Shown here piece by piece: positions 28,701 to 46,295 of a DNA stretch of 64,000 nucleotides. The notes under the pieces were generated by a model. It worked only from the letters and a program-made list of their open reading frames with translations. It was not told the DNA's origin and made no database searches. Origin of the DNA: an uncultured Candidatus Saccharibacteria bacterium (GTDB taxonomy: Bacteria; Patescibacteriota; Minisyncoccia; Phycocordibacterales; UBA9973); the NCBI GenBank assembly GCA_964625065.1, contig CAZUZL010000004.1, positions 11,040-75,039 on the forward strand, given 5' to 3'. Numbering within the stretch: position 1 is the first letter of the stretch; each line of letters opens with the position of its first letter. The position numbers and the translations under genes are program-made.

Positions 28701-31529
28701 CTATACTGCTGCAATGTTTATAAGTCTGCCAGGGACGTATATTATTTTCTTTATTTCTTTACCTTCTAGCCACTGTAAAACTTTTTCGTTTTTCATTGCA
28801 ATAGACTCTACATCTGACTGTATTGCGTCAGTTGGTATTGTTATTTCAGCGCGAACTTTGCCGTTAACTTGCACACCGATGGTTACAGTGCTTGAAGTTA
28901 TTTTCTTAGGGTTGTATTTAGGCCATGGGCTTTGATGAATACTGTTTTTTGAAGACTCAAAAACCGCCCATAATTCGTCTGTAACATGCGGTGCAAATGG
29001 GGCCAGTAACTGTAAGAATGTTTTAAACATATCTACAGGCACAGTGGGTGCATTTTCAAATTCATTTAGACATATCATTAAACTAGATATTGCAGTATTG
29101 AATGCAAAGTTTTCTATATCTTCGGTAACTTTCTTAATGGTTTTATGTAAAGTTATGACAGTAGTTTCAGAAATAGCGGAAGCGGAGAACGATTTTGAAT
29201 GGTCTGGCTGAGCGATTTTTGCCGAAGGTGAAAAATGTCGCGAAGAGATCCCCGCCCGACCGAGTCCTTCGGGCAGGCGAGGACCTGAAAAATCGTTCTC
29301 CGGTGAAGCTATTATTTTTTGACCTAATCTCCAAACACGTTCAATAAACCGGCGTGAACCTATTATACTTTCAGTGTTCCATGGCTGGCTTGCAGTAAAC
29401 GGCCCCATAAACATTTCATATACACGTAATGTGTCTGCACCAAATGTTTTTATTATATCGTCTGGGTTTACTACATTACCCCAACGTTTAGACATTTTAC
29501 GGCCATCGGCAGCTAATATTAGACCCTGGTTGTACATTTTTTTAAACGGTTCTTCGGTATTTACTGAACCGATATCTTTCAAAAACTTATGCCAGAAACG
29601 TGAATACAACAAATGCCCGGTAACGTGTTCTGCACCGCCTACATACACGTCTACATTTTTCCAATATGCTATTTCTTTGTCACCTACTAACGACTTTGCA
29701 TTTTTCGGGTCCATATAACGTAGGAAATACCAAGAAGATCCCGCCCAACCCGGCATAGTGTTTGTTTCATAACCTTTATCTGTCCAAGACTTAACACCTG
29801 CCAACGGCCCCTCAGCCTTACCTGTAGGTTCGTACGACTTTACGTTTGGTAGTTCTAGTGGAAGTTTTTTAACTTCGTGTATTATTCCACCTTTGTCGCG
29901 GTATAGTGGAATAGGTTCGCCCCAGTAACGCTGACGTGCAAATATTGCATCACGCATTTTGTAGTTTGTTATAGTTCTGCCACCTACTGATTTTGTAATT
30001 TCTATTTTAGCTTTTTCTGAAGGCATTCCTGTAAATGAACCAGAATTTATTGCGTAACCCAAACCTGTATAACATTCGTACTGTAAATTTACTTCTACAT
30101 CTGACCAACTTCTTGAACCCATTGGTACAGGCTTAAGAGTTTTTTCGTCATTAAGGTTTACTGCAATAACTTTTTTAATATCTAATTTATATTTCTTTGC
30201 AAATTCAAAGTCGCGTTCGTCGTGCGCCGGTACAGACATAACAGCACCAGTACCATAACCAGCTAAAACATAGTCGGCCACCCATACAGGAACAGCTTCG
30301 CCGTTGGCTGGGTTTATAGCTTTTATACCTTTTAGTTCTACACCAGATTTTTCGTTGTTTTCTGTGCGTTCTTCATTTGTTTTGTTTTTAACTTGGCGTA
30401 TGTATGTTTCTACAACACTATAGTTTTGTATTTGTGTTTTGTTTTTTTCTATAAAGTCATGTTCTGGCGCTAATACAACAGCTGATACACCAAACAAAGT
30501 GTCTGCCCGTGTTGTAAACACAGTTATTTTGTCTGTACTGCCTTCAACTAAAAAGTCTATTTCTGCGCCTTCGCTTTTACCTATCCAGTTGTTTTGTATT
30601 GTTTTAATATGTTCGGGGAAATCGATGGTTTCTAGTCCACTGATCAAACGTTCAGCATATGCAGTTATGCGCATAGACCATTGGCGTATTGTCATTTTTT
30701 CTACTGGGTATTCACCACGTTCAGAAACTTGTTTACCATCTTTGTCCACGATCTCATCATTTGCCAGCACGGTACCTAATTCCTGACACCAGTTTACTTC
30801 ACTGTCAGCTTCATAAGCCAGACGGTAGTGCATTAGTATTTCTTGTTTTTTTAATTCAGTAAAACCTTTCCACTGAATAGCAGAAAATGCAAAACGGTAT
30901 GTAGTATATGCATTACCATTTTTTACATAATCTTTATTACCCTTTGTTTCAAATATTTTTACTAATTGGTCTATAGACTGGGCTTTGTTTTTCTTTACAT
31001 CGTAGTACGAATTATAAAGTTGTAAGAATATCCATTGTGTCCATTTGTAGTATTCTGGGTCTGTAGTATTTATTCTACGTGTCCAGTCATAAGACAAACC
31101 TATTGCTGAAAGTTGTTTTTCAAAAGTTTTTACATTTATTTCCACTGCGCGTTTAGGGTGCACCTTATGTGCTATAGCGTACTGTTCCGCAGGTAAACCG
31201 AATGCATCGTAACCCATCGGGTGCAAAACATTGTAACCCTGCATGCGTTTATATTGTGCTAATACGTCAGACCCAATGTAGCCACGTGGGTGACCAACGT
31301 GCAAACCAGCCCCAGACGGGTATGGAAACATATCCAAAATATAGAAAGGCTTTTTTCCGCCAGCTGGCGGATTTTTCTTGGCGTCACTTGCCGACAGGGT
31401 TTTGTAAGTTTGATTTTTGTCCCACAGTTTTTGCCACTTTTTTTCAATAGCAAGGTGGTTGTAGTCCTTAATTTTTGCTGGTTTTTTAGCACCAGTGGAC
31501 GTGGTTTTTTTAGCCATATTTGTTTTCAT
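28701..31529 (-). CDS. leuS: Leucine--tRNA ligase carrying an in-frame insertion of a palindromic repeat. Start set at the ATG giving MKTNMAKK; the ATG at 31517 is also possible.
   Basis: HIGH-type motif PYPSGAGLHVGHPRGY, KMSKRWGN and CP1/editing-domain similarity. A 119-bp element flanked by terminal inverted repeats at 29182-29300 encodes an extra segment, ENDFSGPRLPEGLGRAGISSRHFSPSAKIAQPDHSKS, between the conserved VWRL and LHKTIKKVT. Confidence 0.9.
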   Translation of the reverse strand: MKTNMAKKTTSTGAKKPAKIKDYNHLAIEKKWQKLWDKNQTYKTLSASDAKKNPPAGGKKPFYILDMFPYPSGAGLHVGHPRGYIGSDVLAQYKRMQGYNVLHPMGYDAFGLPAEQYAIAHKVHPKRAVEINVKTFEKQLSAIGLSYDWTRRINTTDPEYYKWTQWIFLQLYNSYYDVKKNKAQSIDQLVKIFETKGNKDYVKNGNAYTTYRFAFSAIQWKGFTELKKQEILMHYRLAYEADSEVNWCQELGTVLANDEIVDKDGKQVSERGEYPVEKMTIRQWSMRITAYAERLISGLETIDFPEHIKTIQNNWIGKSEGAEIDFLVEGSTDKITVFTTRADTLFGVSAVVLAPEHDFIEKNKTQIQNYSVVETYIRQVKNKTNEERTENNEKSGVELKGIKAINPANGEAVPVWVADYVLAGYGTGAVMSVPAHDERDFEFAKKYKLDIKKVIAVNLNDEKTLKPVPMGSRSWSDVEVNLQYECYTGLGYAINSGSFTGMPSEKAKIEITKSVGGRTITNYKMRDAIFARQRYWGEPIPLYRDKGGIIHEVKKLPLELPNVKSYEPTGKAEGPLAGVKSWTDKGYETNTMPGWAGSSWYFLRYMDPKNAKSLVGDKEIAYWKNVDVYVGGAEHVTGHLLYSRFWHKFLKDIGSVNTEEPFKKMYNQGLILAADGRKMSKRWGNVVNPDDIIKTFGADTLRVYEMFMGPFTASQPWNTESIIGSRRFIERVWRLGQKIIASPENDFSGPRLPEGLGRAGISSRHFSPSAKIAQPDHSKSFSASAISETTVITLHKTIKKVTEDIENFAFNTAISSLMICLNEFENAPTVPVDMFKTFLQLLAPFAPHVTDELWAVFESSKNSIHQSPWPKYNPKKITSSTVTIGVQVNGKVRAEITIPTDAIQSDVESIAMKNEKVLQWLEGKEIKKIIYVPGRLINIAAV
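29182..29300. repeat. Palindromic dispersed repeat, copy D: a MITE-like element with 14-bp terminal inverted repeats, inserted in-frame in leuS
   Basis: Terminal inverted repeats cggagaacgatttt and aaaatcgttctccg. The internal ttgaatggtctggctgagcgattt matches the cores of copies A and B. A GC-rich internal hairpin is present. Confidence 0.6.
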
Positions 31530-31539
31530 GAATATATGC

Positions 31540-31589
31540 AGTATACCCCCACACCTAGTTTTTTGCAAAAAACTAGGTGTGGGGGTATA
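31540..31589 (-). promoter_or_regulatory. leuS promoter TTGCAA-N17-TATACT embedded in a perfect 48-bp palindrome; the ATG lies 10 nt after the -10
   Basis: tatacccccacacctagttttttgcaaaaaactaggtgtgggggtata is perfectly self-complementary. A related, partly palindromic copy lies at 20350-20405. Confidence 0.55.
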
Positions 31590-31652
31590 GCAAAAAGCGA
31601 ATAAAAATACGAGTTGCAAAAAACAACTGTAAAAACACTATTTATTAACTAA

Positions 31653-34410: not shown

Positions 34411-35520
34411 CTATATTTTGAATTCTACGACATCTCCATCTTTCATAATGTATTCCTTTCCTTCTGTACGTACTTTACCTTTTGCGCGGGCTTCGGTGTA
34501 CGAACCAGCTTCTAATAGGTCAGACCAAAAAACAACTTCAGCACGGATAAATTTATCTTTAAAATCTGTATGTATAGCCATACCTGCCACCGGTGCAGTA
34601 GAACCGTGTTGTATAGTCCAGGCGCGAGTTTCTTCTACACCTGTTGTAAAATATGTGTCCAGACCAAGTAGTTTATAGCAACCAGAAATAAGGTCGTTAA
34701 CACCATCGTGTTCACCACCTAGTTCTTTGCGGAACATGTTTTTTTCTTCACCTTCAAAGTCCTTCAGTTCGTCTTCTATTTTTGCATCGATTATTATATA
34801 GTGCGAACCATTTTTAATTATTTCATTTGTTAGTTCAGCAAAAAGTTCTGGACTTGATTCGTCAAAGTTTTTAGCACCAGCACGTTTGTTTAGGCCGTAT
34901 ATCATTGGCTTACTAGTTAACAGGTTTAGTTGTTTTACTTTTTTCAATTCTTCTTCAGAATATTGTAAACTGTTTGCCAACTTGCCTTCTTCTAAAACTT
35001 TTTCTACACGTTTCAATAGTTCTTCTTCAAACAGGGCGTCTTTGTCGCCTTTTTTAGTGTCTTTTTGTAAATTCGAAATACGCTTTGTAACGGTTTCAAA
35101 GTCAGCTAATACAAGTTCCAGATTTATAACACCAATGTCGCGTAGCGGGTCTACAGTGCCGTATACGTGGGTTACATCTTTGTCGCCACCTGTTAGTGGA
35201 AACATGCGTACCATATGCAGGATTGCGTCGGTTTCGCGTATGTTGGCTAGGAATTTGTTACCCAAACCTTCACCCTTACTGGCACCAGCAACTAGGCCGG
35301 CAATGTCCACAAACTCTACCACAGCAGGTATAGTACGGTTGGTTTTAGAAAATTCCGCTAGTTTATACAAACGGTCGTCTGGCACAGGCACAATACCCAC
35401 TGACGGGTCGATGGTGCAGAACGGGTAGTTTTCAGCTGGCACACCCTTTTTAGTTAAGGCGTTAAACAACGTGGACTTGCCCACATTTGGTAACCCTACA
35501 ATTCCGATAGATAAACTCAT
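34411..35520 (-). CDS. ychF: Ribosome-binding ATPase YchF (Obg-family GTPase)
   Basis: GIVGLPNVGKSTLFNALT, a G4-equivalent motif and a C-terminal TGS domain (VFWSDLLEAGSYTEARAKGKVRTEGKEYIMKDGDVVEF). Confidence 0.9.
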   Translation of the reverse strand: MSLSIGIVGLPNVGKSTLFNALTKKGVPAENYPFCTIDPSVGIVPVPDDRLYKLAEFSKTNRTIPAVVEFVDIAGLVAGASKGEGLGNKFLANIRETDAILHMVRMFPLTGGDKDVTHVYGTVDPLRDIGVINLELVLADFETVTKRISNLQKDTKKGDKDALFEEELLKRVEKVLEEGKLANSLQYSEEELKKVKQLNLLTSKPMIYGLNKRAGAKNFDESSPELFAELTNEIIKNGSHYIIIDAKIEDELKDFEGEEKNMFRKELGGEHDGVNDLISGCYKLLGLDTYFTTGVEETRAWTIQHGSTAPVAGMAIHTDFKDKFIRAEVVFWSDLLEAGSYTEARAKGKVRTEGKEYIMKDGDVVEFKI

Positions 35521-35576
35521 GGCAAGAGTATAGCAGAAAAATACCTATTTTTCAAAATAGGTATTTTTCTGCGTAT

Positions 35577-38500
35577 TTAGGCTTCTACTCCACAAGAATT
35601 ATTTATCAACCCTCTAGTAAGTGGGCCAACCAAACCGTCTTGTTTCGTACCCAGGAATTTCTGCATTCTTTTGATGGCACCATTGGTTATTGGTCCAAGT
35701 ATTCCGTCTTCTTTACCTGATGCAAAGCCTAGTCTGTTCATGTGTGCTTGAAGTATTTTAACTTCACTTACAATAGTTTTTGCAAATGAATTGTATTTAC
35801 CATTTCTAGCACCAGCCTTAAGGTTTTGAGTTAGTAGCTGTGTAGCTGAACACTGACCCTTAACGCCTAGTGTATTGTTTGTATTTGTGTTTGTATTATT
35901 TACCACCGCGTATCTACACATTGAAGGCGAACTGATACCGAAAGGTTGGTAGTTTGTGGCTTTTATGTCTTTACAACCAAAAGGCACAGAACTAGAAGTT
36001 GTGGTAGTTGTGGTAGTTGTGGTAGTTGTGGTAGTTGTGGTAGGGGCTTCTGAAACTGATAGAACTATATAGTCGGTATTTAACGAATGGTGTAATTGCC
36101 CTGGAACTATATCAGTACGTAAACCTGTAAAATTAATTGCACGGGTGTTGTATGTAGATTGGTACAGATTATGTTCTGCGTCTGTTGGGTAACTTTCAAC
36201 ATCAGTATGGTATGGGTACTGTGTCATAGCACTAAATGGTAGCGGACCTATTTCGTCACCGAGTGCGTATATGTATGCCTTGTGGTAGTCATTTGTGTAG
36301 TAGATGAAGTCGCGTTCAGTTCCTGGTGCTTGTGCCGGTACTGCGTATTTAAATGCAAGTTCGTCACCTTGAGTCATTATTACAAACTTATCATCATTTG
36401 ATTGAAGTAGTTCTGTAACATCTCCATATTTTGTAGCATTACCTGTTGTTTTATTTGAAATAAATGCATCTGTAACATCACCATATACTGGTTCGGTTAG
36501 AATCATATTTGGATCGTTTGGGTTTGTACGAACCTTACTAGATATTCCACGGAAATGTAAATCTGCATAGTATGGGTTCTCAGATGTAACAGTAATAGCA
36601 GAATCTGGGTTTGTATCTACAGCAAGGTAATCTATATCCCACATACGTTTTGTATTTGTCATTATTAGACGAATAGTATTGTCCTTAATTGTTAAGCCTG
36701 AAAGATCGATAACTTTTGTTTCAACGCCATAAGAATTAAATCTTAAGCGTGACGGGTATGGGGCACCTTCTCTTTGAGTTACAAACACATTGTATTCACT
36801 TGGTACGTCCACAAATTCGCCTGCTTCATTTTTGTATTGAAGTGTATCTGATCCAGATCCACCGGAGAAAGGACCTTCCTTACCTCTTTCGATTAATAGT
36901 TTGAGGTTGGCTGGTGTAGTTATGCCATTACTTAGTTTTATATCAATATACGCTGGAGTTACATTTAGTTTCGAATGGTAATACACCCCATCGTTTTGTG
37001 ATAGTAAACTTGTAACATCCTGCCCATCTTGGTCTATTACTGATACAGGTGCTGGGGCATTTTTCGCTACTGTATGTATCTGTCCGTTTTCACGGTAGTC
37101 TGGGAATACATTTACTGATGCATCGTGGTCGATGATTTTCAGTGAAGTTGAATCAAAGTAGTTTATTTCATTTAATTCAGTTGTGTTTTTAATATCGTAA
37201 AAAGTTTCATTACCTACTGTTCTAGGTACAAGGTTGCCTGACTGAATTTTGGCGTAGCCTTCTGGGTTCGGGTAGTTGTTGTTTGTATTTGGGTCTTTGT
37301 AGAATGGATTCGCTGCCCATGTAGCCCTATCTAGACCGATAGAAAGTGTAGATGAACTTGATGCATCTGTTACGAACACATATTTCTCTCCGTCCCAGAC
37401 GAATATATATGGGCAAGACGATGCATATGGGCCACCGACTTCACTTGTGGCTACATTTGAAGATGCGTCAGTAGAACGAACAATGTAATAAAGTGTGGGT
37501 GTGCCATAAGTAACTGATATAGAATGCGAAGTAACCATTGCATCATCATGAACATAAAAAACTAAATTATTATTGTATTCATGCAATGTCGTATATGTGT
37601 TTGTGTCGAAGTTATATTCAAAGACGGAACCAGCACCACTTACACCACCCTGATTCGCTGTTCCATAAAAATTACCGTTTCTTTCAATCAAAGACCCTCT
37701 TGGATTCGATCCGATAGAATAATCAAAATCATATTGATCTGTAATAGCGTTTGTAACTGGGTCCCAAGCAAATAAAATTCCAGCACCGTTTACCCCACCA
37801 AATATTGAAGTACCATAAAGAATACCACTTATATTAATAAGTGAACCTGAGGGGGCTTCGCCGTCTGTACTATTAAAGTCATAATGCTTTGTTATAGTGT
37901 TGGTAACTGGGTCCCAAGCAAATAATACCCCAAAACCATTGGCCCCACCGTTTAATGTGGTACCGTATAGAACTCCGCTTATATTAATTAAAGAACCTTG
38001 TGGGTATGCACCGTTTGAACCATCAAAATCAAACTGTTTTGTAATTGTATTTGTAACTGGGTCCCAAGCAAATAATGTACCCATGCCACTAACCCCTCCA
38101 TATGTTGTAGTGCCATAAAGAATTCCACCAATATTCAGTAAAGAACCCTGTGGACCTGAACCGTCTGTGGTATTAAAATCATATTGTTTTGTTATAGTGT
38201 TTGTAACTGGGTCCCAAGCAAATAATGTTCCAGCATTATTTGCACCACCACTACCTGTGGTACCGTAAAAAATTCCACTAACATTAATTAATGAACCGTA
38301 CGGGTGTACACCGTCTGTTGTGTTAAAGTTATACTGTTTTGTAATTGTATTTGTAACTGGGTCCCAAGCAAACAAAGTACCTACACTATTTGTCCCACCG
38401 CTATACGTTGTTCCGTAGAATATCCCACTTACATTTACTAATGACCCTTTTGGGTTTGCCCCATTAGTACTATTAAAACTAAATCTATTTGTATATATAG

Positions 38501-40841
38501 ACGTATCAGGGTTATACTCAAAAATAGTTCCCACATCAGAAGGATTACTTTCATTTTCTGTAGTCATACCATAAAACGATCCATTGTATTCTATAAGTGA
38601 CCCGTATGGAGAAGTCCCAAATGCTTTTTCATTATATTGGTCCCAATTAGAATACGCATTTGAAGAATACATTATTTCTGAATTTGCTGGTACGTTTGTG
38701 TCCCAGGTAAGTGTGTGACTAATATTACTGAAAACTAAATTCGAAATCTCAATAAGTGGAACATAATTGTCTGCCTTAATCCATACCCAGGTATTACCAT
38801 CAACATCCATATATTTAGTACCGGTTTTGTCACCAGTTAATGTACAGTCCGTAGAACAGTGTTGTGTAGTAACTTGTTCCCATGCCGATGTAGTGAAATT
38901 GTAAAAAGATATTGTAACCATTTTGTCTGCAGGCACATCACCGTGGCCGGTCCAGACAACACTAAACTTTGGGTTTGTAATGCCACCTGAATCTAGCTTG
39001 ATTTTAAACACTTGCGAATCATAGCCACCGTCAGTTACAGATAGTGCTGTAGTCCAGTAGTCAGAATCAGTACTATATATACTTGCAAGGTTATCAGCAG
39101 TACCTAGTGTACCCGGAGACCCAGGGGTTACAGCTGTATCTGCACTTTCGTATAGTATGTATGGGGTAATACTTGAAGCAACTGCAGTACCTGGACTTAA
39201 ACCAATACTAGCAACAGGGGTAACTTCAAACTTGATTGTTTTATTTACATCATCTGCTGTTAAAATATATGTTATATTTGTAGCACCAGCTATAGCAACA
39301 TTGTTTCTGTACCATTGAAAAGTTGAAACTCCTTCTGGATCATTTTCTGTATCGCTGTATGTGTACTGCCCTGTAAGAGTGGCCCCTAATTCTAAATTGC
39401 CGGAAATAGATACACTTGTGGCAACAGGTATACTATCTGTAGTAGTAACTCCACTACTTTGTAAAAGTACTCCCGGTGTAACCCCCGTATTTGCAACTGG
39501 TTGAACACCGAACTTGATTGTTGTATGAGCATCGTCTGTCGTTAATACATATGTATTTGAATTTGCACCAGATATAGCCACATCATCACGGTACCAAGAA
39601 TACACAGAGGCACCTTCTAGGTCATTATCCACATCTACATATGTATAGTTTCCAGTTAAGGTATCTCCGATGTTTGCAGTGCCGGTTATTGACACACTTG
39701 TGGCAGTCGGCGCAAAGTTTGTTGGATCCCATTCATATATTACACCATGTGATGATGTTCCACCTGCGCCTGTAGTTCCATAAAATTTACTATTGCTTTC
39801 AATTAGTGAAACAGCGGGACTATATACGCCACTATCAGCATAAAAATTAAATTTATTTACAAATATACTGGTAACAGGATCAAATTCAAAAATTATGCCA
39901 TTATTATCTAAACCACCTTGGATTGTTACACCGTACAATTTACTATTACTTATTATCATTGACCCGGATGGGAATTTTCCGTCAGTGCTATCAAAATCAT
40001 GTACATCAGTATATGTATTTGTATTTGGATCATATTCATAAATCACACCAAAACCATTTGCACCATCATATGCTAACCCATAAAATTTACCATTCAACAA
40101 TGTTAATGAACCTATTGGGGTAGACCCACTGATTGGTGTAAAGTCATACTTTTTTGTAGTAATATGAGTAATTGGATTAAATTCAAAAAGGGTTCCACTT
40201 CCTCCACTTAGAGGTGCAACACCATAAAGTTTACCATTACTTACAGCCAATAAACTTGATGGCAATCTTCCACCAGCAACATTATTATAACTTGTGTATG
40301 TATTCGTGTTGGGATCGAATGCATAAATTACTCCTATGTTTGATGTACCACCTTGGGTAGTTAATCCGTAAAATATACCATTATACTCAATCAGTGGACC
40401 ACGTGGGGTATTTCCATTTACACCAATATCAAAATCATACAAATCAGTATATGTACTTGTGTTTGGATCAAATTTAAATATAACACCATACCCATTTGCA
40501 CCACCTTGCTGAGTTGTACCATAAAAAAATCCGTTACTTTCAAGTAGTGGTCCGTTAGGCCTGTCTCCATTTACACCATCGAGGTCATAAATATCAGTAT
40601 ATGTATTTGTATTATTGTCATATTCAAATATTGCACCATAACCATTCGCACCACCTGAAATTGTTGCTCCATAAAACTTTCCATTACTTATTATTAATGG
40701 GCCGTTCATAGAATATCCATTACTGACATTAAAATCATACTTCTTAACAACACCCGCCTCAGCACTCTGTGCCCCTACCGCAAACGAGACCACTATGAAC
40801 GCAACCAATATTAATTTTCGGAAATTTAGTAATTTATACAT
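35577..40841 (-). CDS. Giant secreted surface protein (1754 aa). It contains a signal peptide, two blocks of roughly 45-50-aa beta-propeller-type tandem repeats, two Ig-like repeats, a 550-aa domain of unknown function, a poly-Thr linker and a C-terminal peptidoglycan-binding domain.
   Basis: Signal peptide MYKLLNFRKLILVAFIVVSFAVGAQSA. Repeats of the form ...LYGTTxxGGxxGxGT[LV]F[AE][WY]DPxTNT... occur about 8 times at the N terminus and 7 times centrally. The central block corresponds to exact 150-bp DNA periodicity. A T16 linker is present. The C terminus, ...ILQAHMNRLGFASGKEDGILGPITNGAIKRMQKFLGTKQDGLVGPLT, matches the PG_binding_1 pattern. Confidence 0.7.
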   Translation of the reverse strand: MYKLLNFRKLILVAFIVVSFAVGAQSAEAGVVKKYDFNVSNGYSMNGPLIISNGKFYGATISGGANGYGAIFEYDNNTNTYTDIYDLDGVNGDRPNGPLLESNGFFYGTTQQGGANGYGVIFKFDPNTSTYTDLYDFDIGVNGNTPRGPLIEYNGIFYGLTTQGGTSNIGVIYAFDPNTNTYTSYNNVAGGRLPSSLLAVSNGKLYGVAPLSGGSGTLFEFNPITHITTKKYDFTPISGSTPIGSLTLLNGKFYGLAYDGANGFGVIYEYDPNTNTYTDVHDFDSTDGKFPSGSMIISNSKLYGVTIQGGLDNNGIIFEFDPVTSIFVNKFNFYADSGVYSPAVSLIESNSKFYGTTGAGGTSSHGVIYEWDPTNFAPTATSVSITGTANIGDTLTGNYTYVDVDNDLEGASVYSWYRDDVAISGANSNTYVLTTDDAHTTIKFGVQPVANTGVTPGVLLQSSGVTTTDSIPVATSVSISGNLELGATLTGQYTYSDTENDPEGVSTFQWYRNNVAIAGATNITYILTADDVNKTIKFEVTPVASIGLSPGTAVASSITPYILYESADTAVTPGSPGTLGTADNLASIYSTDSDYWTTALSVTDGGYDSQVFKIKLDSGGITNPKFSVVWTGHGDVPADKMVTISFYNFTTSAWEQVTTQHCSTDCTLTGDKTGTKYMDVDGNTWVWIKADNYVPLIEISNLVFSNISHTLTWDTNVPANSEIMYSSNAYSNWDQYNEKAFGTSPYGSLIEYNGSFYGMTTENESNPSDVGTIFEYNPDTSIYTNRFSFNSTNGANPKGSLVNVSGIFYGTTYSGGTNSVGTLFAWDPVTNTITKQYNFNTTDGVHPYGSLINVSGIFYGTTGSGGANNAGTLFAWDPVTNTITKQYDFNTTDGSGPQGSLLNIGGILYGTTTYGGVSGMGTLFAWDPVTNTITKQFDFDGSNGAYPQGSLINISGVLYGTTLNGGANGFGVLFAWDPVTNTITKHYDFNSTDGEAPSGSLINISGILYGTSIFGGVNGAGILFAWDPVTNAITDQYDFDYSIGSNPRGSLIERNGNFYGTANQGGVSGAGSVFEYNFDTNTYTTLHEYNNNLVFYVHDDAMVTSHSISVTYGTPTLYYIVRSTDASSNVATSEVGGPYASSCPYIFVWDGEKYVFVTDASSSSTLSIGLDRATWAANPFYKDPNTNNNYPNPEGYAKIQSGNLVPRTVGNETFYDIKNTTELNEINYFDSTSLKIIDHDASVNVFPDYRENGQIHTVAKNAPAPVSVIDQDGQDVTSLLSQNDGVYYHSKLNVTPAYIDIKLSNGITTPANLKLLIERGKEGPFSGGSGSDTLQYKNEAGEFVDVPSEYNVFVTQREGAPYPSRLRFNSYGVETKVIDLSGLTIKDNTIRLIMTNTKRMWDIDYLAVDTNPDSAITVTSENPYYADLHFRGISSKVRTNPNDPNMILTEPVYGDVTDAFISNKTTGNATKYGDVTELLQSNDDKFVIMTQGDELAFKYAVPAQAPGTERDFIYYTNDYHKAYIYALGDEIGPLPFSAMTQYPYHTDVESYPTDAEHNLYQSTYNTRAINFTGLRTDIVPGQLHHSLNTDYIVLSVSEAPTTTTTTTTTTTTTTTSSSVPFGCKDIKATNYQPFGISSPSMCRYAVVNNTNTNTNNTLGVKGQCSATQLLTQNLKAGARNGKYNSFAKTIVSEVKILQAHMNRLGFASGKEDGILGPITNGAIKRMQKFLGTKQDGLVGPLTRGLINNSCGVEA
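35995..36043. repeat. 9-bp tandem repeat (gtggtagtt)n encoding a poly-Thr linker
   Basis: Five and a half copies, encoding 16 consecutive Thr on the minus strand. Confidence 0.7.
37600..38500. repeat. 150-bp tandem coding repeats (6-7 copies) inside the giant gene
   Basis: gtaactgggtcccaagcaaataa recurs at 37754, 37904, 38054, 38204 and 38354, spaced exactly 150 bp apart. Confidence 0.7.
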
Positions 40842-40940
40842 ACGGCAATTATATCATAAAATGGCAAATGTCTAATAGAGCTAATGCTGACCTAAATAAA
40901 CACCGTGTATACACGTACACGGCTTTTTTATTTCAGAAAA

Positions 40941-42503
40941 CTAATTATTTTTATTAGTCTTCTTAACTATTTTAACACTATTTTTTGTATTGGTTTTTTG
41001 GGTTTTCGTATTTTTATTTTGGTATACAACTTGGTGGCTAATTAACGGTGAATGTACACCAGTAGTAGATACATATGACAAATACACTTTATAAGTGCCG
41101 TACTTTTCAGGAAGTATAAAACTTTCTTTATTGGTAAATTTATTATATGGGTGTATTACTTCGTTTTTAAAGTTAGGGTCTAACGACACTATGTACCCTG
41201 CTGTTGTACTAGAATCTGCATTAAAACTTAAAGTTAGTTTGTTTGTATTAGTTTTTTGGTTACCACTGTCTATTATAAAATCTAGAGGTTTATTGTTGTT
41301 TGACTTCGGAACAACTAGAACACCTGACCAACCACTACCTGGGCGTGATACTGAAAAAGTATTAGAAACACCAGACCCAAAACCAATTTTTGACACACCA
41401 GAGTTGTTATAGTTTGCAACCCACACACTACTGTTGTTTGTATTTATAGCTACACCAGTTGCCGCCAATATGTTTGGACTTGTATAATTAGTAATCTGAC
41501 CAGAAAGTGTAACTTTTGAAACAGCAACAACGTTTGCCACCCACATATCAGTTTCATCAAATGTTATACCGTACCCGGCTGACTCTAACCCTGGGTATGT
41601 AGTCATAACACCAGTTGGAGTAATTTTAGTTACACTATAGCCACCATAGTCAGCTGTCCACATGTTTGTGCCATCAAATGCAATGTCTAGCGGGTACCCA
41701 CCTGTACCTGTATATGTAGTCATAGACCCTGCAGGTGTTATTTTTGTAACACTGTCGTCATTAAAACTTGCTGTCCACATGTTTGTACCGTCAAACGCAA
41801 TAGAAGAAGGGTTAGTACCAGTACCAGTGTAGGTGGTAATAACACCTAGTGGAGTTATTTTTGAAACACTTGCATCAGCGTTTGCAGTCCACATGTTTGT
41901 ACCGTCAAAGGCAATGTCCAGAGGGCCTACAAGCGGACCATAATTTGTCATTGAACCATTAGGTGCAATTTTAGTAACATTGTTTCCGCTTACGTTTGCT
42001 GTCCACATGTTTATACCGTCAAAAGCAATACCACGTGGTCCGTCACCTGTACCTGTATATGTAGTAACTGTGCCATCGTATGCAACCTTGTCTACTTCAT
42101 TTGAAAAGTAGTTTGTTACCCACATGTTTGTGCCGTCAAATGCCAGGTTCCACGCACCGCCACCAACACCACCATAAAACGTAGCTGTTGGTTTTAAACT
42201 AATAGAAACAGTATTGTTGTTCGAAGCAACACCAGTGGTTGGTGTAAACGTAGCTGTATAAACCAGTGGGTCTGCAGTAGATGTTAAGTTTGACAAAGTA
42301 CCACCAGTTACCAAAATATCGTTTAATGTAAAATTTATAGGTCGTTCAGTAAAAGCAAAAGTTACAGTAGTTGTGTTAGTGTTTAACATCGTACCACTTA
42401 TACTTATTGAAACATTTGAAGTCGCTGTTGAAGCAAGCAAAATTGTAGATGTGTTTAAAAACAACATCAAAGCAATAAGTGAACACAAAAAGTATTTATT
42501 CAT
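40941..42503 (-). CDS. Secreted beta-propeller repeat protein (NHL/Vgb-like blades)
   Basis: Signal peptide MNKYFLCSLIALMLFLNTSTILLAS. About seven 39-aa repeats of the form GPxxIAFDGTNMWTAxxxxxSVTKITPxGxxTTYTGTG, with 116-bp DNA periodicity. Confidence 0.6.
   Translation of the reverse strand: MNKYFLCSLIALMLFLNTSTILLASTATSNVSISISGTMLNTNTTTVTFAFTERPINFTLNDILVTGGTLSNLTSTADPLVYTATFTPTTGVASNNNTVSISLKPTATFYGGVGGGAWNLAFDGTNMWVTNYFSNEVDKVAYDGTVTTYTGTGDGPRGIAFDGINMWTANVSGNNVTKIAPNGSMTNYGPLVGPLDIAFDGTNMWTANADASVSKITPLGVITTYTGTGTNPSSIAFDGTNMWTASFNDDSVTKITPAGSMTTYTGTGGYPLDIAFDGTNMWTADYGGYSVTKITPTGVMTTYPGLESAGYGITFDETDMWVANVVAVSKVTLSGQITNYTSPNILAATGVAINTNNSSVWVANYNNSGVSKIGFGSGVSNTFSVSRPGSGWSGVLVVPKSNNNKPLDFIIDSGNQKTNTNKLTLSFNADSSTTAGYIVSLDPNFKNEVIHPYNKFTNKESFILPEKYGTYKVYLSYVSTTGVHSPLISHQVVYQNKNTKTQKTNTKNSVKIVKKTNKNN
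41400..42190. repeat. 116-bp tandem coding repeats
   Basis: tgtccacatgtttgtrccrtcaaa recurs at about 41655, 41771, 41887, 42003 and 42119. Confidence 0.65.
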
Positions 42504-44687: not shown

Positions 44688-46295
44688 TTATTTTACTAGC
44701 AAATTATCTGATTTTATTAAGTCTCTAACTTTCTCTATTTCAGATCTAACATATACATCCCCTTTATAATCACCTAGTGCCTTTAAAATGGTATTGTACG
44801 CAACTGATGTTCCAGCACCAAGTTTACGTAACTTAGCAGGAAGTTTTTCTTGAGTAATTTGTATACCTCTAGTAGCACACAATAGTTCTATTGCTAGTAA
44901 TGTTTCTAGGTTTTTAATTACTTTACGTAGATGTACTGCACCCACACTCCCCATTGACACAACGTCTTCTTGGTTTGCAGCAGTTGAAACAGACATTACA
45001 GATGCCGGTGTTGAAAGTACTCTGTTTTCAGCAACTCTAGACGCACCTGCATATTGAGCTATCATGTATCCAGCGTCAGCTTTGGAAGTGTCGAAAGCAA
45101 GATCCCCTGGTAAACCATAACTTAGATGTGAATCAAGTAACGAGAAAGATCTTTTATCACTAGCTATACTTAGTGATGTTAATGTCATTTTTACATAATC
45201 TATAGGTGAAGCCAGTAATTGACCGTGGAAATTACCGCCACTGGCAAAAGAAACGGTTTCAGTATTTTTACCATTAATTTTTACAGTTACGGTTTTTTCA
45301 AAATCAAAAACAGGATTATCTGTTACAGAATTAATTTCAGTGGTCAACGTCTGTTTTAACTTTTCGATTGCTTCAAAAGCTGCACCATGAATCTGAGGCG
45401 CGCATCTAAAACTATATCTATCTTGAACACGTTCTTTGTTACGTTCATTTGAAAATTGAATTTCTTGAGATTCTTTTGTTGTTCTCATTGAACCTTTTAT
45501 CAAAGATCGTATTTGTTTTGCAATTGCAATTTGGCCAATATGTCTATCAGATTGCTCGTTTATAAGTTCTTGGAATGCTCGTTTTTCTCCACGTACAGCT
45601 TCTAAAGAAAGCGCTGTACTTAATGAAGCAATATTAAGCAATTTTTCTGCTTCTAGAACAGAAATTGAAGCAATTGATGCAATAAAATTTGAACCATTTG
45701 TTAGACCCATGGCTTCTTTAGCACCTAGTCTAATTGGTTTTATGCCACTTTGCTTTAACGCTTCTGGGGAACTTAATAATTTACCTTTATAATAAGCTTT
45801 ACCGTCTGGTAAACCAATAATAACAGCACCTATCATTGCTAGTGGCACCAAATCTCCACTTGCACCCACAGAACCTTCTTCTAATATCCAAGGTGTAACA
45901 TTTTTATTTAAAAGTTCTATTAGAATATTACACATATCCCAACTTACTCCGGAATGTCCTTTTAGAAATGAGTTAAGTCTAATAACCATAATTGCACGAG
46001 CTTCTGGAATAGATAATGGTTCACCTGTGCCACAATTATGAGTTTTTATATATTTTACTTGATATTCTTCGATGAATTCATAAGGTACAGCAACATCTTT
46101 TAGATCACCATGCAGACGATTTGTTCCGTAAATAGGTATTTCTGGAAAATTTTTAATCTGAGATTCTAGTTTTTTTCGATGATTTTTAATTTTATTCTGA
46201 AGCACTGGACTTACAGACACACCTGATTCTCCGATTGCAATAGAATGAAGCTCTTTTAATGTTAGACTTTTACCTGTTAAATTTATATTACTCAT
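44688..46295 (-). CDS. MIO-dependent aromatic amino-acid ammonia-lyase family protein (histidine ammonia-lyase-like; divergent N-terminal substrate loop)
   Basis: The Ala-Ser-Gly triad that forms the MIO cofactor sits in GSVGASGDLVPLAM. Length is 535 aa, and HAL/PAL-like length and motif order hold throughout. The substrate-loop region reads IYGTNRLHGDL rather than the HAL-typical YGINTGFG. Confidence 0.7.
   Translation of the reverse strand: MSNINLTGKSLTLKELHSIAIGESGVSVSPVLQNKIKNHRKKLESQIKNFPEIPIYGTNRLHGDLKDVAVPYEFIEEYQVKYIKTHNCGTGEPLSIPEARAIMVIRLNSFLKGHSGVSWDMCNILIELLNKNVTPWILEEGSVGASGDLVPLAMIGAVIIGLPDGKAYYKGKLLSSPEALKQSGIKPIRLGAKEAMGLTNGSNFIASIASISVLEAEKLLNIASLSTALSLEAVRGEKRAFQELINEQSDRHIGQIAIAKQIRSLIKGSMRTTKESQEIQFSNERNKERVQDRYSFRCAPQIHGAAFEAIEKLKQTLTTEINSVTDNPVFDFEKTVTVKINGKNTETVSFASGGNFHGQLLASPIDYVKMTLTSLSIASDKRSFSLLDSHLSYGLPGDLAFDTSKADAGYMIAQYAGASRVAENRVLSTPASVMSVSTAANQEDVVSMGSVGAVHLRKVIKNLETLLAIELLCATRGIQITQEKLPAKLRKLGAGTSVAYNTILKALGDYKGDVYVRSEIEKVRDLIKSDNLLVK

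What the first reader, a model, noticed from the sequence alone, without database searches (positions are those of the whole stretch)
35577..42503. Two adjacent secreted beta-propeller repeat proteins, one 1754 aa long with a poly-Thr linker and a peptidoglycan-binding anchor
The giant ORF reads, from N to C terminus: signal peptide, about eight 45-aa repeats, two Ig-like repeats (...G[DA]TLTGxYTY.D.[ED]NDxEG.S...WYR...I.GA...TY.LT.DD...I.F.V.PVA), a 550-aa domain I cannot assign, seven near-identical 50-aa repeats (150-bp DNA period, consistent with recent expansion or ongoing recombination), a T16 linker, and a PG_binding_1-like C terminus. This design would tether a large propeller array to the cell wall. 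The neighbouring 520-aa protein has seven 39-aa NHL/Vgb-like blades. Such proteins are candidates for host or prey attachment in small-genome symbionts. The exact-period DNA repeats make them likely phase-variable or assembly-collapsed loci.
Basis: partly seen in the sequence, partly recalled or inferred. Interest (0 to 1): 0.55.

Follow-up and report, generated by a model that had tools for sequence, protein, structure and literature searches.

The report
Wall-anchored double-propeller surface protein
A tiny-genome (Patescibacteria-like) bacterium encodes a real 1754-residue secreted protein that most likely hangs two Kelch-like seven-bladed propellers from its own cell wall, with a swappable outer head on a conserved stalk. 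It is probably a binding or attachment protein of an uncharacterised but already catalogued repeat family, and it is neither a phase-variable nor a mis-assembled locus.

Summary
Both ORFs exist exactly as reported (35577-40841 and 40941-42503, minus strand).

**The large protein**
- It is a GloVer-repeat protein (TIGR03803, 14 repeats).
- Its layout is: signal peptide, propeller 1 (7 blades), 2 AIR9-type Ig domains, an unnamed beta-sandwich, an FN3-like domain, an unnamed 460-aa domain, a Thr15 linker, a Cys motif and PG_binding_1.
- Propeller 2 (7 blades) is inserted inside a loop of the FN3-like domain.
- The 460-aa domain is shared with the C-termini of bacterial "CRTAC1 family" proteins.

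**Repeats**
- Blades are only 62-74% identical in protein and 65-75% in DNA. The longest exact DNA match between units is 36 bp.
- Four of five full-length proteins (this one and three orthologues) keep 7+7 blades.
- dN/dS is 0.04-0.33 in every domain. Assembly collapse and on/off phase variation are therefore not supported.

**Variation among orthologues**
- The stalk is 90-96% identical, while propeller 1 is 43-52% identical in three of four orthologues, with a several-fold higher dS.
- In one orthologue propeller 1 is replaced by a propeller-2-type cassette.
- Blade variation sits at about ten positions, mostly in two loops.

**Interpretation:** a Sec-exported, wall-tethered binding protein with a diversifying head. 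Host attachment is plausible but untested.

**The 520-aa neighbour** is a Big_12 plus Vgb-like propeller protein. It is not a Vgb lyase and not a conserved partner.

The parts
35577..40841 (-). Large ORF, 1754 aa: GloVer-repeat surface protein with a PG_binding_1 anchor
   Evidence: ORF; translation; TIGR03803 at 407.6 bits and PG_binding_1; full-length orthologues at 69-83% identity
40755..40841 (-). Signal peptide, residues 1-29 (basic n-region, hydrophobic core, AEA|G cleavage-type motif)
   Evidence: Read directly from the translation; no signal-peptide predictor was available
39702..40742 (-). Propeller 1: seven GloVer repeats (residues 34-380), the variable distal head
   Evidence: HMM built from the repeats finds 7 units; TIGR03803; 43-52% identity in three of four orthologues, with dS 1.3-2.3 in the two that have DNA; replaced by a propeller-2-type cassette in P0031
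39162..39701 (-). Two AIR9-type Ig-like domains (residues 381-560)
   Evidence: PF23197 at E 4.8e-14 with 2 stretches, and a partial ZirU_fam match; motif count varies from 1 to 3 among orthologues
38766..39161 (-). Unnamed ~130-aa beta-sandwich 'D' domain (residues 561-692)
   Evidence: No Pfam hit; AF2 predicts 8 strands at pLDDT 55-71; 90-93% conserved among orthologues; homologous D-plus-FN3 module in P0377
38637..38765 (-). N-terminal half of a split FN3-like (Pur_ac_phosph_N-type) domain (residues 693-735)
   Evidence: The propeller-deleted construct aligns across the junction with intact FN3 domains: BLASTP 41% over 85 aa, E 1e-9; hhalign probability 95.3%; 31% over 218 aa, E 2e-25 against the P0377 D-plus-FN3 module
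37587..38636 (-). Propeller 2: seven GloVer repeats (residues 736-1085), nested inside the FN3-like domain; 150-bp DNA period
   Evidence: AF2 pLDDT about 90; best structural matches are Kelch-type propellers, E 3e-11; variable positions mostly in two loops
37416..37586 (-). C-terminal half of the split FN3-like domain (residues 1086-1142)
36042..37415 (-). Unnamed 460-aa all-beta domain (residues 1143-1600), homologous to the C-terminal region of bacterial 'CRTAC1 family' proteins and of archaeal CARDB proteins
   Evidence: Homologues at 27-32% identity, E down to 5.7e-35; a profile that also includes FG-GAP/UnbV columns finds 1987 cluster representatives at E<=1e-30; 95-96% identical among orthologues, dN/dS 0.04-0.05; AF2 pTM 0.71 with weak CBM32-like sub-domain matches
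35997..36041 (-). Thr15 linker encoded by a perfect 9-bp tandem repeat
   Evidence: Tandem Repeats Finder: period 9, 5.2 copies, 100% matches; count; linker length differs among orthologues
35772..35996 (-). Cys-bounded motif (FGCKDIKATNYQPFG...CRY) and Asn/Thr-rich spacer (residues 1616-1690)
   Evidence: Translation; conserved together with the anchor at the C-termini of diverse large Patescibacteria proteins
35613..35768 (-). PG_binding_1 domain (residues 1692-1743), the presumed non-covalent cell-wall anchor
   Evidence: PF01471 at E 5.8e-12; sequence match to endolysin and SleB peptidoglycan-binding domains in the PDB
40941..42503 (-). Neighbour ORF, 520 aa: signal peptide, Big_12 Ig domain (27-108), seven-bladed Vgb-like propeller (~118-400), unassigned C-terminal region (~401-495, no family hit), Lys/Asn-rich tail
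40902..40923 (-). Terminator-like hairpin between the two genes
   Evidence: Consensus scan; sequence. Consensus match only
40848..40856 (-). Extended -10-like element (TGATATAAT) ending 6 nt before the large gene's ATG
   Evidence: Read; not reported by the scanner because there is no good -35. Inference only

Best explanation
The 1754-aa product is a Sec-exported, modular surface protein of a Patescibacteria (Parcubacteria/Nomurabacteria-like) cell.

**Proposed mechanism**
- The C-terminal PG_binding_1 domain holds the protein non-covalently on the cell's own peptidoglycan.
- The Thr15 linker and Asn/Thr-rich spacer carry the chain through or away from the wall.
- A highly conserved stalk projects two Kelch-like seven-bladed GloVer propellers outward. 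The stalk consists of the 460-aa CRTAC1-C-terminal-like domain, the FN3-like domain and the D domain.
- Propeller 2 is nested in a loop of the FN3-like domain. Propeller 1, on Ig spacers, forms the distal head.
- The propellers are the ligand-binding parts. Their scaffold is kept nearly constant, and variation is mostly confined to the D-A and B-C loops of each blade. The distal propeller is exchanged as a cassette between relatives.
- The most likely ligand is a surface structure of a host or partner cell, or a glycan.

**Shown here:** domain identities, the nested insertion, blade number, purifying selection, and mosaic conservation with cassette replacement.

**Inferred:** export, wall binding, orientation, loop-face binding and the nature of the ligand.

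**The 520-aa neighbour** is an independent secreted Big_12 plus Vgb-like-propeller protein in the same variable surface-protein slot. It is not an obligate partner.
For: **Identity of the parts**
- TIGR03803 scores 407.6 bits with 14 stretches, arranged 7+7.
- IG_AIR9 and PG_binding_1 are above their Pfam cut-offs.
- AF2 predicts propeller 2 at pLDDT about 90. Its best structural matches are Kelch domains, E about 1e-10.

**Nested insertion**
- The propeller-deleted sequence aligns as one HSP through the junction to the intact D-plus-FN3 module of P0377: 31% over 218 aa, E 2e-25.
- It also aligns to the FN3 domain of P0302: 41% over 85 aa, E 1e-9, and hhalign probability 95.3%. Pfam labels that P0302 segment Pur_ac_phosph_N.

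**A real gene under selection**
- dN/dS is 0.04-0.33 in every domain.
- Four full-length orthologues come from independent assemblies.

**Constant stalk, variable head**
- The 460-aa domain is 95-96% identical, the D domain 90-93% and PG_binding_1 89-98%.
- Propeller 1 is 43-52% identical in three of four orthologues.
- In the two of those with DNA, dS is 1.3-2.3 in propeller 1 against 0.37-0.38 in the 460-aa domain.
- Propeller 1 of P0031 is of the propeller-2 type: 60% identical to the query's propeller 2 and 43% to its propeller 1.
- A more distant relative (P0036, 49% identity) keeps D, FN3 with the nested propeller, the 460-aa domain and the anchor, but has a GLUG-type repeat head instead.

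**Binding-type variation**
- Across 36 blades the consensus is QYDFNxxDGxxPxGSLINIxGVLYGTTxxGGANxxGTLFAWDPVTNTITK.
- Variation is limited to about ten positions. By the model's secondary structure most of them lie in or next to the D-A and B-C loops.

**Anchor plausibility**
- MurJ and two PBPs are encoded in the window.
- The same C-terminal anchor cassette ends many different large proteins in Patescibacteria MAGs.

**Locus**
- In relatives the position upstream of ychF holds one gene or a tandem run of 3-4 large genes, most with a recorded PG_binding_1 hit.

**Precedent**
- A beta-propeller-bearing pilin, PilX2, is needed for efficient host binding in Saccharibacteria TM7x (PMC11623550).
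- Epibiotic growth of a Saccharibacterium requires multiple adhesins (PMC10633639).
Against: - No experimental function is known for any GloVer-repeat protein. No paper in the held library mentions the family.
- No ligand, host or localisation data exist for this protein.
- Signal-peptide cleavage and peptidoglycan binding are inferred from sequence only.
- The loop-face argument rests on secondary structure from a predicted model. I could not inspect coordinates.
- AF2 gave low confidence (pLDDT 28-42) for the FN3 halves themselves.
- The 460-aa domain is the most strongly constrained part and has invariant Asp/His/Glu/Arg residues. It could be catalytic rather than a passive stalk.
- The organism's lifestyle is inferred from relatives' record titles, not shown.
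Confidence: 0.6

Rival explanations
1. The protein is primarily an extracellular enzyme. The strongly conserved 460-aa domain would be a glycan-processing or other catalytic module. The propellers and Ig domains would be substrate-targeting or spacer modules, and the wall anchor would keep the enzyme near the cell.
For: - The 460-aa domain has the strongest purifying selection in the gene, dN/dS 0.04-0.05.
- Many charged or aromatic residues are invariant or nearly so across distant homologues: Y80, E90, D95, D103, H104, E116, D149, R256, D267 and others.
- Sub-domains resemble CBM32-type jelly rolls that accompany glycoside hydrolases.
- In a close relative the adjacent slot holds a wall-anchored S8 peptidase, so the island also carries exo-enzymes.
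Against: - There is no match to any catalytic family in Pfam, NCBIfam or by PDB sequence.
- Fold matches are weak: E >= 2.5e-3 and query-normalised TM-score <= 0.21. They are to binding modules rather than catalytic domains.
- The homologous domain usually sits at the C-terminus of FG-GAP/UnbV proteins, which have no known enzymatic role.
Confidence: 0.15
2. The protein is a structural envelope component, such as a wall-associated coat or S-layer-like spacer. Its propellers would mediate self-assembly or interaction with the cell's own envelope proteins rather than with foreign ligands.
For: - The protein is large, wall-anchored and made of beta-rich repeats.
- Relatives carry several tandem paralogues with the same anchor.
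- Propellers are common protein-protein scaffolds, for example BamB among the fold matches.
Against: - A housekeeping structural role predicts uniform conservation. Instead the distal propeller is replaced or highly diverged between close relatives while the stalk is 95% identical.
- The gene family is rare. The 5.8-billion-protein collection returned four full-length orthologues and one more distant relative, and the JGI metagenome contigs returned only distant relatives.
- Paralogue number varies between genomes.
Confidence: 0.12
3. The repeat arrays are an assembly artefact (collapsed or chimeric repeats), or the gene is a contingency locus switched on and off by repeat-number changes.
For: - The 150-bp period is exact.
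- One orthologue has 6 rather than 7 blades in propeller 2.
- One relative's contig ends about 250 bp into the gene that follows its 520-aa orthologue, and the contigs carrying two orthologues are only 8-10 kb. Short-read assemblies may have trouble here.
- The poly-Thr linker is a perfect 9-bp tandem repeat.
Against: - Units share only 60-84% DNA identity, and the longest exact match between propeller-2 units is 36 bp.
- The reading frame is intact over 5.2 kb, with dN/dS below 0.35 throughout.
- The 7+7 arrangement recurs in this protein, in three of its four full-length orthologues and in a paralogue.
- Seven blades fit a closed propeller, predicted with pLDDT about 90.
- The only perfect repeat is a multiple of three, so it cannot shift the frame.
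Confidence: 0.03

Closest known systems
GloVer-repeat proteins (NCBIfam TIGR03803, 'choice-of-anchor tandem repeat GloVer-containing protein'), mostly ~1000-1100-aa T9SS-sorted proteins of Bacteroidota
   Same: - The ~50-aa repeat is the same, scoring far above the family cut-off.
- The repeats are tandem and form propellers.
- The protein is extracytoplasmic, with a modular C-terminal anchoring or sorting domain.
   Different: - The anchor is PG_binding_1 rather than the T9SS C-terminal domain PF18962, which most of the 120 listed hits carry. Only 7 of those 120 carry PF01471.
- There are two separate seven-blade propellers, one of them nested in an FN3-like domain.
- It is fused to Ig_AIR9 domains and to the 460-aa CRTAC1-C-terminal-like domain.
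- The host lineage is Patescibacteria.
Kelch-domain beta-propellers (e.g. the KLHL and Keap1 Kelch domains)
   Same: - They are the best structural matches to the predicted propeller 2: E about 1e-10, target-normalised TM-score about 0.6.
- There is weak sequence similarity, E 4e-5 to KLHL17.
- From established knowledge, Kelch domains bind their ligands through the D-A and B-C loops of the top face. Most of the blade variation here falls in those loops.
   Different: - No Pfam Kelch model is matched.
- The propeller has seven rather than six blades.
- It is a bacterial extracellular protein.
PilX2 of Saccharibacteria TM7x (minor pilin with a C-terminal heptabladed propeller)
   Same: - It is a Patescibacteria surface protein that displays a seven-bladed propeller.
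- Deleting it halves host binding (PMC11623550).
- Relatives of the 520-aa neighbour's propeller are likewise fused to prepilin N-termini, PF07963.
   Different: - PilX2 has RCC1-type blades and is carried on a type IV pilus.
- The protein here has GloVer blades and a peptidoglycan-binding anchor.
- No homology was shown.
Bacterial 'CRTAC1 family' / ASPIC-UnbV proteins (TPR + FG-GAP/VCBS propeller + UnbV_ASPIC + C-terminal extension)
   Same: - The 460-aa domain is homologous to their C-terminal extension: 27-32% identity over more than 90% of its length, E down to 5.7e-35.
- In both cases the domain lies C-terminal to a beta-propeller.
   Different: - The query has no FG-GAP, VCBS or UnbV_ASPIC domains.
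- The upstream propeller is of the GloVer type.
Virginiamycin B (streptogramin B) lyase Vgb, compared with the 520-aa neighbour only
   Same: The neighbour has the seven-bladed propeller of the Pfam Vgb_lyase family (71.1 bits against 50) and matches PDB 2z2p at E 4.6e-13.
   Different: - The NCBIfam Vgb(A) model scores 42 bits against a cut-off of 600.
- Similarity is at the level of blades, and the best stretch covers chain residues 11-222 only.
- The neighbour is secreted and carries a Big_12 Ig domain.

Membership tests
GloVer-repeat proteins (TIGR03803) | Tandem ~50-aa repeats matching the family HMM above its curated cut-off | tested here: met
   407.6 bits against a cut-off of 44, with 14 stretches. 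An HMM built from the repeats finds 7+7 units.
GloVer-repeat proteins (TIGR03803) | A C-terminal anchoring or sorting domain that differs between lineages ('choice of anchor') | tested here: met
   PG_binding_1 lies at the C-terminus. Most other family members among the hits carry the T9SS C-terminal domain PF18962 instead.
PG_binding_1 (PF01471) wall-binding proteins | Match to PF01471 above the gathering score | tested here: met
   46 bits against 23, residues 1692-1743. Sequence matches to endolysin and SleB peptidoglycan-binding domains in the PDB.
PG_binding_1 (PF01471) wall-binding proteins | Actual binding to peptidoglycan | not testable with these tools
   Needs a sacculus pull-down. 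Peptidoglycan synthesis genes are present in the window.
FN3 / Pur_ac_phosph_N-type beta-sandwich (split by an insertion) | Homology of both halves, in order, to an intact FN3 domain | tested here: met
   - BLASTP gives 41% over 85 aa, E 1e-9, to P0302 residues 1602-1697. Pfam labels that segment PF16656.
- hhalign gives probability 95.3%.
- A single HSP of 31% over 218 aa, E 2e-25, aligns to the P0377 D-plus-FN3 module and runs through the junction.
FN3 / Pur_ac_phosph_N-type beta-sandwich (split by an insertion) | Direct match to a Pfam FN3-type model, or a confident structural model of the sandwich | tested here: not met
   No Pfam hit for the halves or for the deletion construct. AF2 pLDDT for the halves is 28-42.
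Kelch-repeat proteins | Match to Pfam Kelch repeat models | tested here: not met
   No Kelch family among the Pfam hits. The resemblance is in fold only, plus a weak phmmer hit.
CRTAC1 family / ASPIC-UnbV proteins | FG-GAP/VCBS repeats plus the UnbV_ASPIC domain | tested here: not met
   Neither is found in the query. Only the C-terminal extension is shared.
Streptogramin B lyase Vgb (520-aa neighbour) | Score above the NCBIfam Vgb(A) cut-off | tested here: not met
   42.1 bits against 600.
Streptogramin B lyase Vgb (520-aa neighbour) | Conservation of the catalytic and metal-binding residues | tested here: inconclusive
   The best aligned stretch covers chain residues 11-222 of 299. The second stretch is not significant, so the residues could not be mapped.
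Phase-variable (contingency) surface-protein loci | Near-perfect simple repeats or long identical repeats whose copy number switches the frame or expression | tested here: not met
   The only perfect repeat is an in-frame 9-bp unit. Blade repeats are 60-84% identical in DNA, with exact matches of at most 36 bp between propeller-2 units.
Covalently anchored or S-layer surface proteins (LPXTG/sortase, SLH) | A C-terminal LPXTG sorting signal or SLH domains | tested here: not met
   No such Pfam or NCBIfam hits. The C-terminus ends in PG_binding_1 followed by ...NNSCGVEA.

The most novel reading that the evidence does not exclude
The doxX-ychF island would be a host-range or partner-specificity locus of Parcubacteria-type episymbionts.
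- A constant, wall-anchored stalk (D domain, FN3 with a nested propeller, the 460-aa domain and PG_binding_1) would carry an exchangeable GloVer propeller head.
- Loop positions on the head would be diversified on a homogenised scaffold.
- This would work like the diversification of phage receptor-binding proteins or of variable repeat receptors.
- It would give the uncharacterised GloVer family its first function, namely programmable ligand recognition.
Probability: 0.25. Interest if true: 0.6.

Novelty: new variant of a known kind. Interest (0 to 1): 0.35.

Why it matters
- Almost nothing is known about how Parcubacteria-type Patescibacteria recognise and hold on to partners. The experimental data found here (two papers) come from Saccharibacteria.
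- This locus offers a concrete, testable candidate with a clear division of labour: a conserved wall-anchored stalk and a cassette-swapped, loop-diversified propeller head.
- It supplies two unnamed domains for structural work: the D domain and the 460-aa domain shared with the large bacterial "CRTAC1 family".
- It documents a clean example of a whole seven-bladed propeller nested in an FN3 loop.
- It suggests that GloVer repeats, a catalogued but functionless family, are binding scaffolds.
- For genome-scan purposes, exact-period repeats here are ordinary propeller blades. They are not a sign of mis-assembly or phase variation.

Tried and rejected
**Libraries and searches that were unavailable or empty**
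- Papers on GloVer, TIGR03803, AF_1625_C or PF27237: none in the held library. A first search was swamped by the surname Glover.

**The 460-aa domain**
- Foldseek gave only weak jelly-roll (CBM32, discoidin, phage tail) matches with low TM-scores. No fold family is assigned.
- Profile and single-sequence searches of the PDB found no solved relative.

**The FN3-like halves**
- Pfam, and a PDB profile search with the propeller-deleted construct, gave nothing significant. The best was neogenin FN3 at E 0.26.
- phmmer against all ORFs and proteins in hand found no contiguous homologue.
- AF2 did not model the halves confidently.
- The insertion was only settled after a motif search turned up intact FN3 domains in P0302, P0323 and P0377.
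- P0323 was dropped as an example of "FN3 directly before the 460-aa domain", because other domains lie between them.

**Searches for more relatives**
- The metagenome scan for further close orthologues returned only 23-33% relatives.
- The L007 protein looked like a 71% orthologue but is not one. It is a GLUG-repeat protein with a diverged copy of the 460-aa domain and the same anchor.

**Unresolved label**
- Some orthologues carry the precomputed label PF27237 (AF_1625_C). This family is missing from the local Pfam copy.
- The CRTAC1-type homologues of the 460-aa domain do not carry it. I therefore could not place it on a region and do not equate it with that domain.

**Ideas rejected**
- The two genes are not an operon or functional pair. 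There is a hairpin between them and the adjacency is not conserved.
- Cluster look-ups gave no organism names.

Full report
**1. What is in the sequence**

The minus strand carries two adjacent ORFs at exactly the reported coordinates.
- The first is 35577..40841 (1754 aa, ATG start).
- The second is 40941..42503 (520 aa, ATG start).
- The surroundings are housekeeping genes: ychF directly downstream (34411-35520), LeuRS, HisRS, an aromatic amino-acid lyase, and a divergent doxX upstream.
- The window also encodes MurJ and two class-B-type PBPs, so the organism makes peptidoglycan.
- GC content is 30-42%.

**2. Anatomy of the 1754-aa protein**

Profile searches identify three elements:
- 14 GloVer repeats (NCBIfam TIGR03803, 407.6 bits against a cut-off of 44);
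- two AIR9-type Ig domains (PF23197);
- a C-terminal PG_binding_1 domain (PF01471, residues 1692-1743).

An HMM built from the repeats places them as 7 units at residues 34-380 and 7 units at 735-1085. The real order from N- to C-terminus is:

| Element | Residues |
|---|---|
| Signal peptide | 1-29 |
| Propeller 1 | 34-380 |
| Two Ig domains | 381-560 |
| Unnamed beta-sandwich "D" | 561-692 |
| FN3-like domain, N-terminal half | 693-735 |
| Propeller 2 | 736-1085 |
| FN3-like domain, C-terminal half | 1086-1142 |
| Unnamed all-beta domain | 1143-1600 |
| Thr15 linker | 1601-1615 |
| Cys-bounded motif and Asn/Thr spacer | 1616-1690 |
| PG_binding_1 | 1692-1743 |

**3. The repeats are diverged propeller blades**

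- Tandem Repeats Finder confirms the 150-bp period.
- Units 2-6 of the second array are only 62-74% identical in protein and 65-75% in DNA. Units 1 and 7 are 20-50% identical to the rest.
- No two units of the second array share more than 36 bp exactly. Repeat families across both genes are 60-84% identical in DNA.
- AF2 predicts residues ~740-1090 as a closed beta-propeller with pLDDT about 90.
- Its best structural matches are Kelch-type propellers, including KLHL and Keap1 Kelch domains and designed Kelch-like proteins, at E about 1e-10.
- Blade number is 7+7 in the query, in three of four full-length orthologues and in a paralogue. One orthologue (P0032) has 7+6.
- The only perfect repeat in the gene is the 9-bp x 5.2 unit that encodes the Thr run. 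It is in frame and can only change linker length. Orthologues do have different linkers.
- Recent expansion, assembly collapse and on/off phase variation are therefore not supported.

**4. Propeller 2 is nested inside an FN3-like domain**

The sequences flanking propeller 2 looked like two halves of an FN3 domain (the Pur_ac_phosph_N type).

Several tests failed to show this:
- Pfam, PDB profile searches and AF2 did not confirm it.
- No contiguous relative was found among the sequences first in hand.

A motif search then found intact FN3 domains in three distant proteins that also carry the 460-aa domain. These settled the question:
- The propeller-deleted construct aligns through the junction with the FN3 domain of P0302: 41% over 85 aa, E 1e-9. 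Pfam labels that segment PF16656.
- A profile-profile comparison gives 95.3% probability.
- The 222-aa D-plus-FN3 construct aligns as a single HSP to the contiguous D-plus-FN3 module of P0377: 31% over 218 aa, 6 gaps, E 2e-25.

So a 350-aa seven-bladed propeller is inserted in a loop of the FN3 sandwich. From general knowledge, the N- and C-termini of a closed propeller lie side by side, which makes such an insertion sterically easy.

**5. The large unassigned domain**

- Residues 1143-1600 have no Pfam or NCBIfam match and no solved relative by sequence.
- They are homologous to the C-terminal extension of Gemmatimonadota proteins that their sources name "CRTAC1 family". These carry FG-GAP/VCBS repeats and UnbV_ASPIC. 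The match is 27-32% identity over more than 90% of the domain, E down to 5.7e-35.
- They are also homologous to a region of Bathyarchaeia CARDB proteins.
- A profile search of 1.84 billion representatives found 1987 proteins at E<=1e-30. That profile also includes FG-GAP/UnbV columns. Most of the best 150 listed are ~1150-1250 aa long with the match reaching their C-terminus. The one I scanned (P0269) has TPR, FG-GAP and UnbV_ASPIC domains.
- The AF2 model (pTM 0.71, mean pLDDT 64) is all-beta.
- Foldseek gives only weak matches of sub-domains to CBM32/discoidin-type jelly rolls.
- Many Asp, Glu, His, Arg and Tyr residues are invariant or nearly so.
- Function is unknown. A glycan- or metal-binding role and a catalytic role are both open.
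- Some orthologues carry the precomputed label PF27237 (AF_1625_C). I could not place it on a region, and it is absent from the CRTAC1-type homologues.

**6. Relatives and locus**

- Four full-length orthologues exist in public assemblies: P0029 at 83%, P0030 at 73%, P0031 at 72% and P0032 at 69% identity. A more distant relative, P0036, is 49% identical.
- The genome-collection scan places the anchor cassette in Candidatus Nomurabacteria, Paceibacterota, Minisyncoccia and other Patescibacteria MAGs.
- In those MAGs the cassette runs from the Cys motif to PG_binding_1 and is 62-83% identical. It terminates many unrelated large proteins.
- Synteny is doxX, then a variable slot, then the large gene or genes, then ychF. 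Relatives hold 3-4 tandem large genes in that place, most with a recorded PG_binding_1 hit.
- The slot that holds the 520-aa gene here is occupied elsewhere by a wall-anchored S8 peptidase or by a 251-aa gene.
- The 520-aa gene is adjacent only in the closest relative. A 44% orthologue sits in an unrelated context.
- A terminator-like hairpin separates the two genes.
- They are therefore co-located members of a variable surface-protein island, not a conserved pair.

**7. Mosaic evolution**

Per-domain comparison with the orthologues shows a conserved stalk and a variable head.

| Domain | Protein identity | dN/dS | dS |
|---|---|---|---|
| 460-aa domain | 95-96% | 0.04-0.05 | 0.37-0.40 |
| D domain | 90-93% | 0.05-0.11 | 0.43-0.55 |
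| PG_binding_1 | 89-98% | not computed for this segment alone | not computed for this segment alone |
| Propeller 2 | 63-77% | 0.10-0.20 | 0.9-2.7 |
| Propeller 1 | 43-52% in three of four orthologues | 0.20-0.33 | 1.3-2.3 in the two of those with DNA |

- All dN/dS values are below 0.35, so this is a working gene.
- The several-fold difference in dS along one gene means the propellers have a different, older history than the stalk. That is recombinational cassette exchange.
- Direct evidence comes from P0031. The propeller in its position 1 is 60% identical to the query's propeller 2, 43% identical to the query's propeller 1, and 72% identical to its own propeller 2.
- P0036 keeps the D domain, FN3 with the nested propeller, the 460-aa domain and the anchor, but carries a GLUG-type repeat head.
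- Across 36 propeller-2-type blades, the scaffold is almost invariant. Variation is confined to about ten positions (6-7, 10-11, 13, 20, 28-29, 34-35), which are rich in Tyr, Asn, Ser, Gln and Arg.
- By the model's strand assignment, most of these positions lie in or next to the D-A and B-C loops. From established knowledge of Kelch domains such as Keap1, those loops form the ligand-binding top face.

**8. Most likely mechanism**

- The protein is exported by Sec and retained on the cell's own wall by PG_binding_1.
- A Thr-rich linker and a conserved stalk project two propellers outward. Their loop faces bind a ligand, and the distal head diversifies by cassette exchange.
- The taxonomic setting makes attachment to a host or partner surface the leading candidate. 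So does the published need for adhesins in epibiotic Saccharibacteria, including a propeller-bearing pilin (PMC10633639 and PMC11623550).
- That step is inference. The rivals are an enzyme role centred on the 460-aa domain, a structural envelope role, and an artefact or contingency locus. They are listed with their tests in the rival explanations.

**9. The 520-aa neighbour**

- Its layout is: signal peptide, Big_12 Ig domain (27-108), seven ~39-aa blades of the Pfam Vgb_lyase family (71.1 bits against 50), about 95 unassigned residues, and a Lys/Asn-rich tail.
- It is not a streptogramin lyase. The NCBIfam Vgb(A) model scores 42 bits against a cut-off of 600, and similarity to PDB 2z2p is at the blade level only.
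- Orthologues at 93% and 80% identity exist.
- Homologous propellers in related bacteria carry either a C-terminal PG_binding_1 domain or an N-terminal prepilin methylation motif. The same head is thus displayed on alternative anchors.

**10. Verdict**

- The tethering idea is supported, and host attachment is plausible.
- The phase-variation and assembly-collapse idea is not supported.
- The protein belongs to a catalogued, functionally uncharacterised family (GloVer repeats) in an unusual architecture. I rate it a new variant of a known kind, of moderate interest.

Noticed in passing
window 40848-40856 (minus strand), ATG at 40841: An extended -10-like element (TGATATAAT) ends only 6 nt before the large gene's start codon, and no Shine-Dalgarno sequence is visible. 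The mRNA may be leaderless or nearly so.
   Followed up: no
window 35997-36043: A perfect 9-bp tandem repeat (5.2 copies) encodes the Thr15 linker and is the only perfect repeat in the gene. Orthologues have shorter or different linkers, so linker length may vary by slippage.
   Followed up: partly
window 35538-35569: A 16-bp direct tandem (AAAATACCTATTTTTC x2, 87% matches) lies in the 56-bp spacer between the large gene's stop codon and ychF. It overlaps a promoter-like site for ychF (35555-35527, minus strand).
   Followed up: no
window 35580-35996 (residues 1616-1754); L001-L010, L018, L019: The C-terminal cassette is conserved at 62-83% identity at the ends of many unrelated large Patescibacteria proteins. 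It consists of the motif 'GC.D..A.NY...C.Y', a spacer, and PG_binding_1 bracketed by two conserved Cys. The passenger proteins show varied repeat motifs by eye, for example GLUG-like GGLIG repeats and FG-GAP-like repeats. It looks like a lineage-wide anchoring module without a name of its own.
   Followed up: partly
Relatives of the 520-aa protein (e.g. P0165, P0167, P0183, P0185, P0197, P0206): The same Vgb-like propeller is fused to an N-terminal prepilin cleavage/methylation motif (PF07963) in other metagenomic proteins. This suggests propeller-tipped pilins.
   Followed up: no
L019 1-15538 and L018 10001-23900: Relatives carry 3-4 tandem large genes at the ychF-proximal locus, most with a recorded PG_binding_1 hit. 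In P0031 and P0033 the blades within and between propellers are about 70-77% identical, which suggests concerted evolution or gene conversion among paralogues.
   Followed up: partly
P0032 (orthologue, contig of 10,045 bp; no DNA available): The second propeller has six rather than seven GloVer units, and two neighbouring units share a nearly identical stretch. This is either a real six-bladed variant or a collapsed repeat in that assembly.
   Followed up: no
window 44688-46295 (minus strand): A 535-aa aromatic amino-acid lyase (PF00221, E 1e-143; histidine or phenylalanine ammonia-lyase type) lies next to HisRS. This is a notable catabolic enzyme for a presumed reduced-genome bacterium.
   Followed up: no
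window 28701-31619 (minus strand): The LeuRS ORF is called from a TTG start, and its first catalytic-domain match begins near residue 97. This could be an N-terminal extension or a mis-set start.
   Followed up: no
window 26355-28679 (minus strand): A 774-aa protein with C-terminal TPR repeats and an unassigned N-terminal ~600 aa lies immediately upstream of MurJ (24693-26348).
   Followed up: no
Orthologues P0030, P0031, P0036: The precomputed Pfam label PF27237 'AF_1625_C' appears on some orthologues, sometimes weakly. It is absent from the local Pfam copy and from the CRTAC1-type homologues of the 460-aa domain. Which region it covers is unresolved; it may be the D domain.
   Followed up: partly
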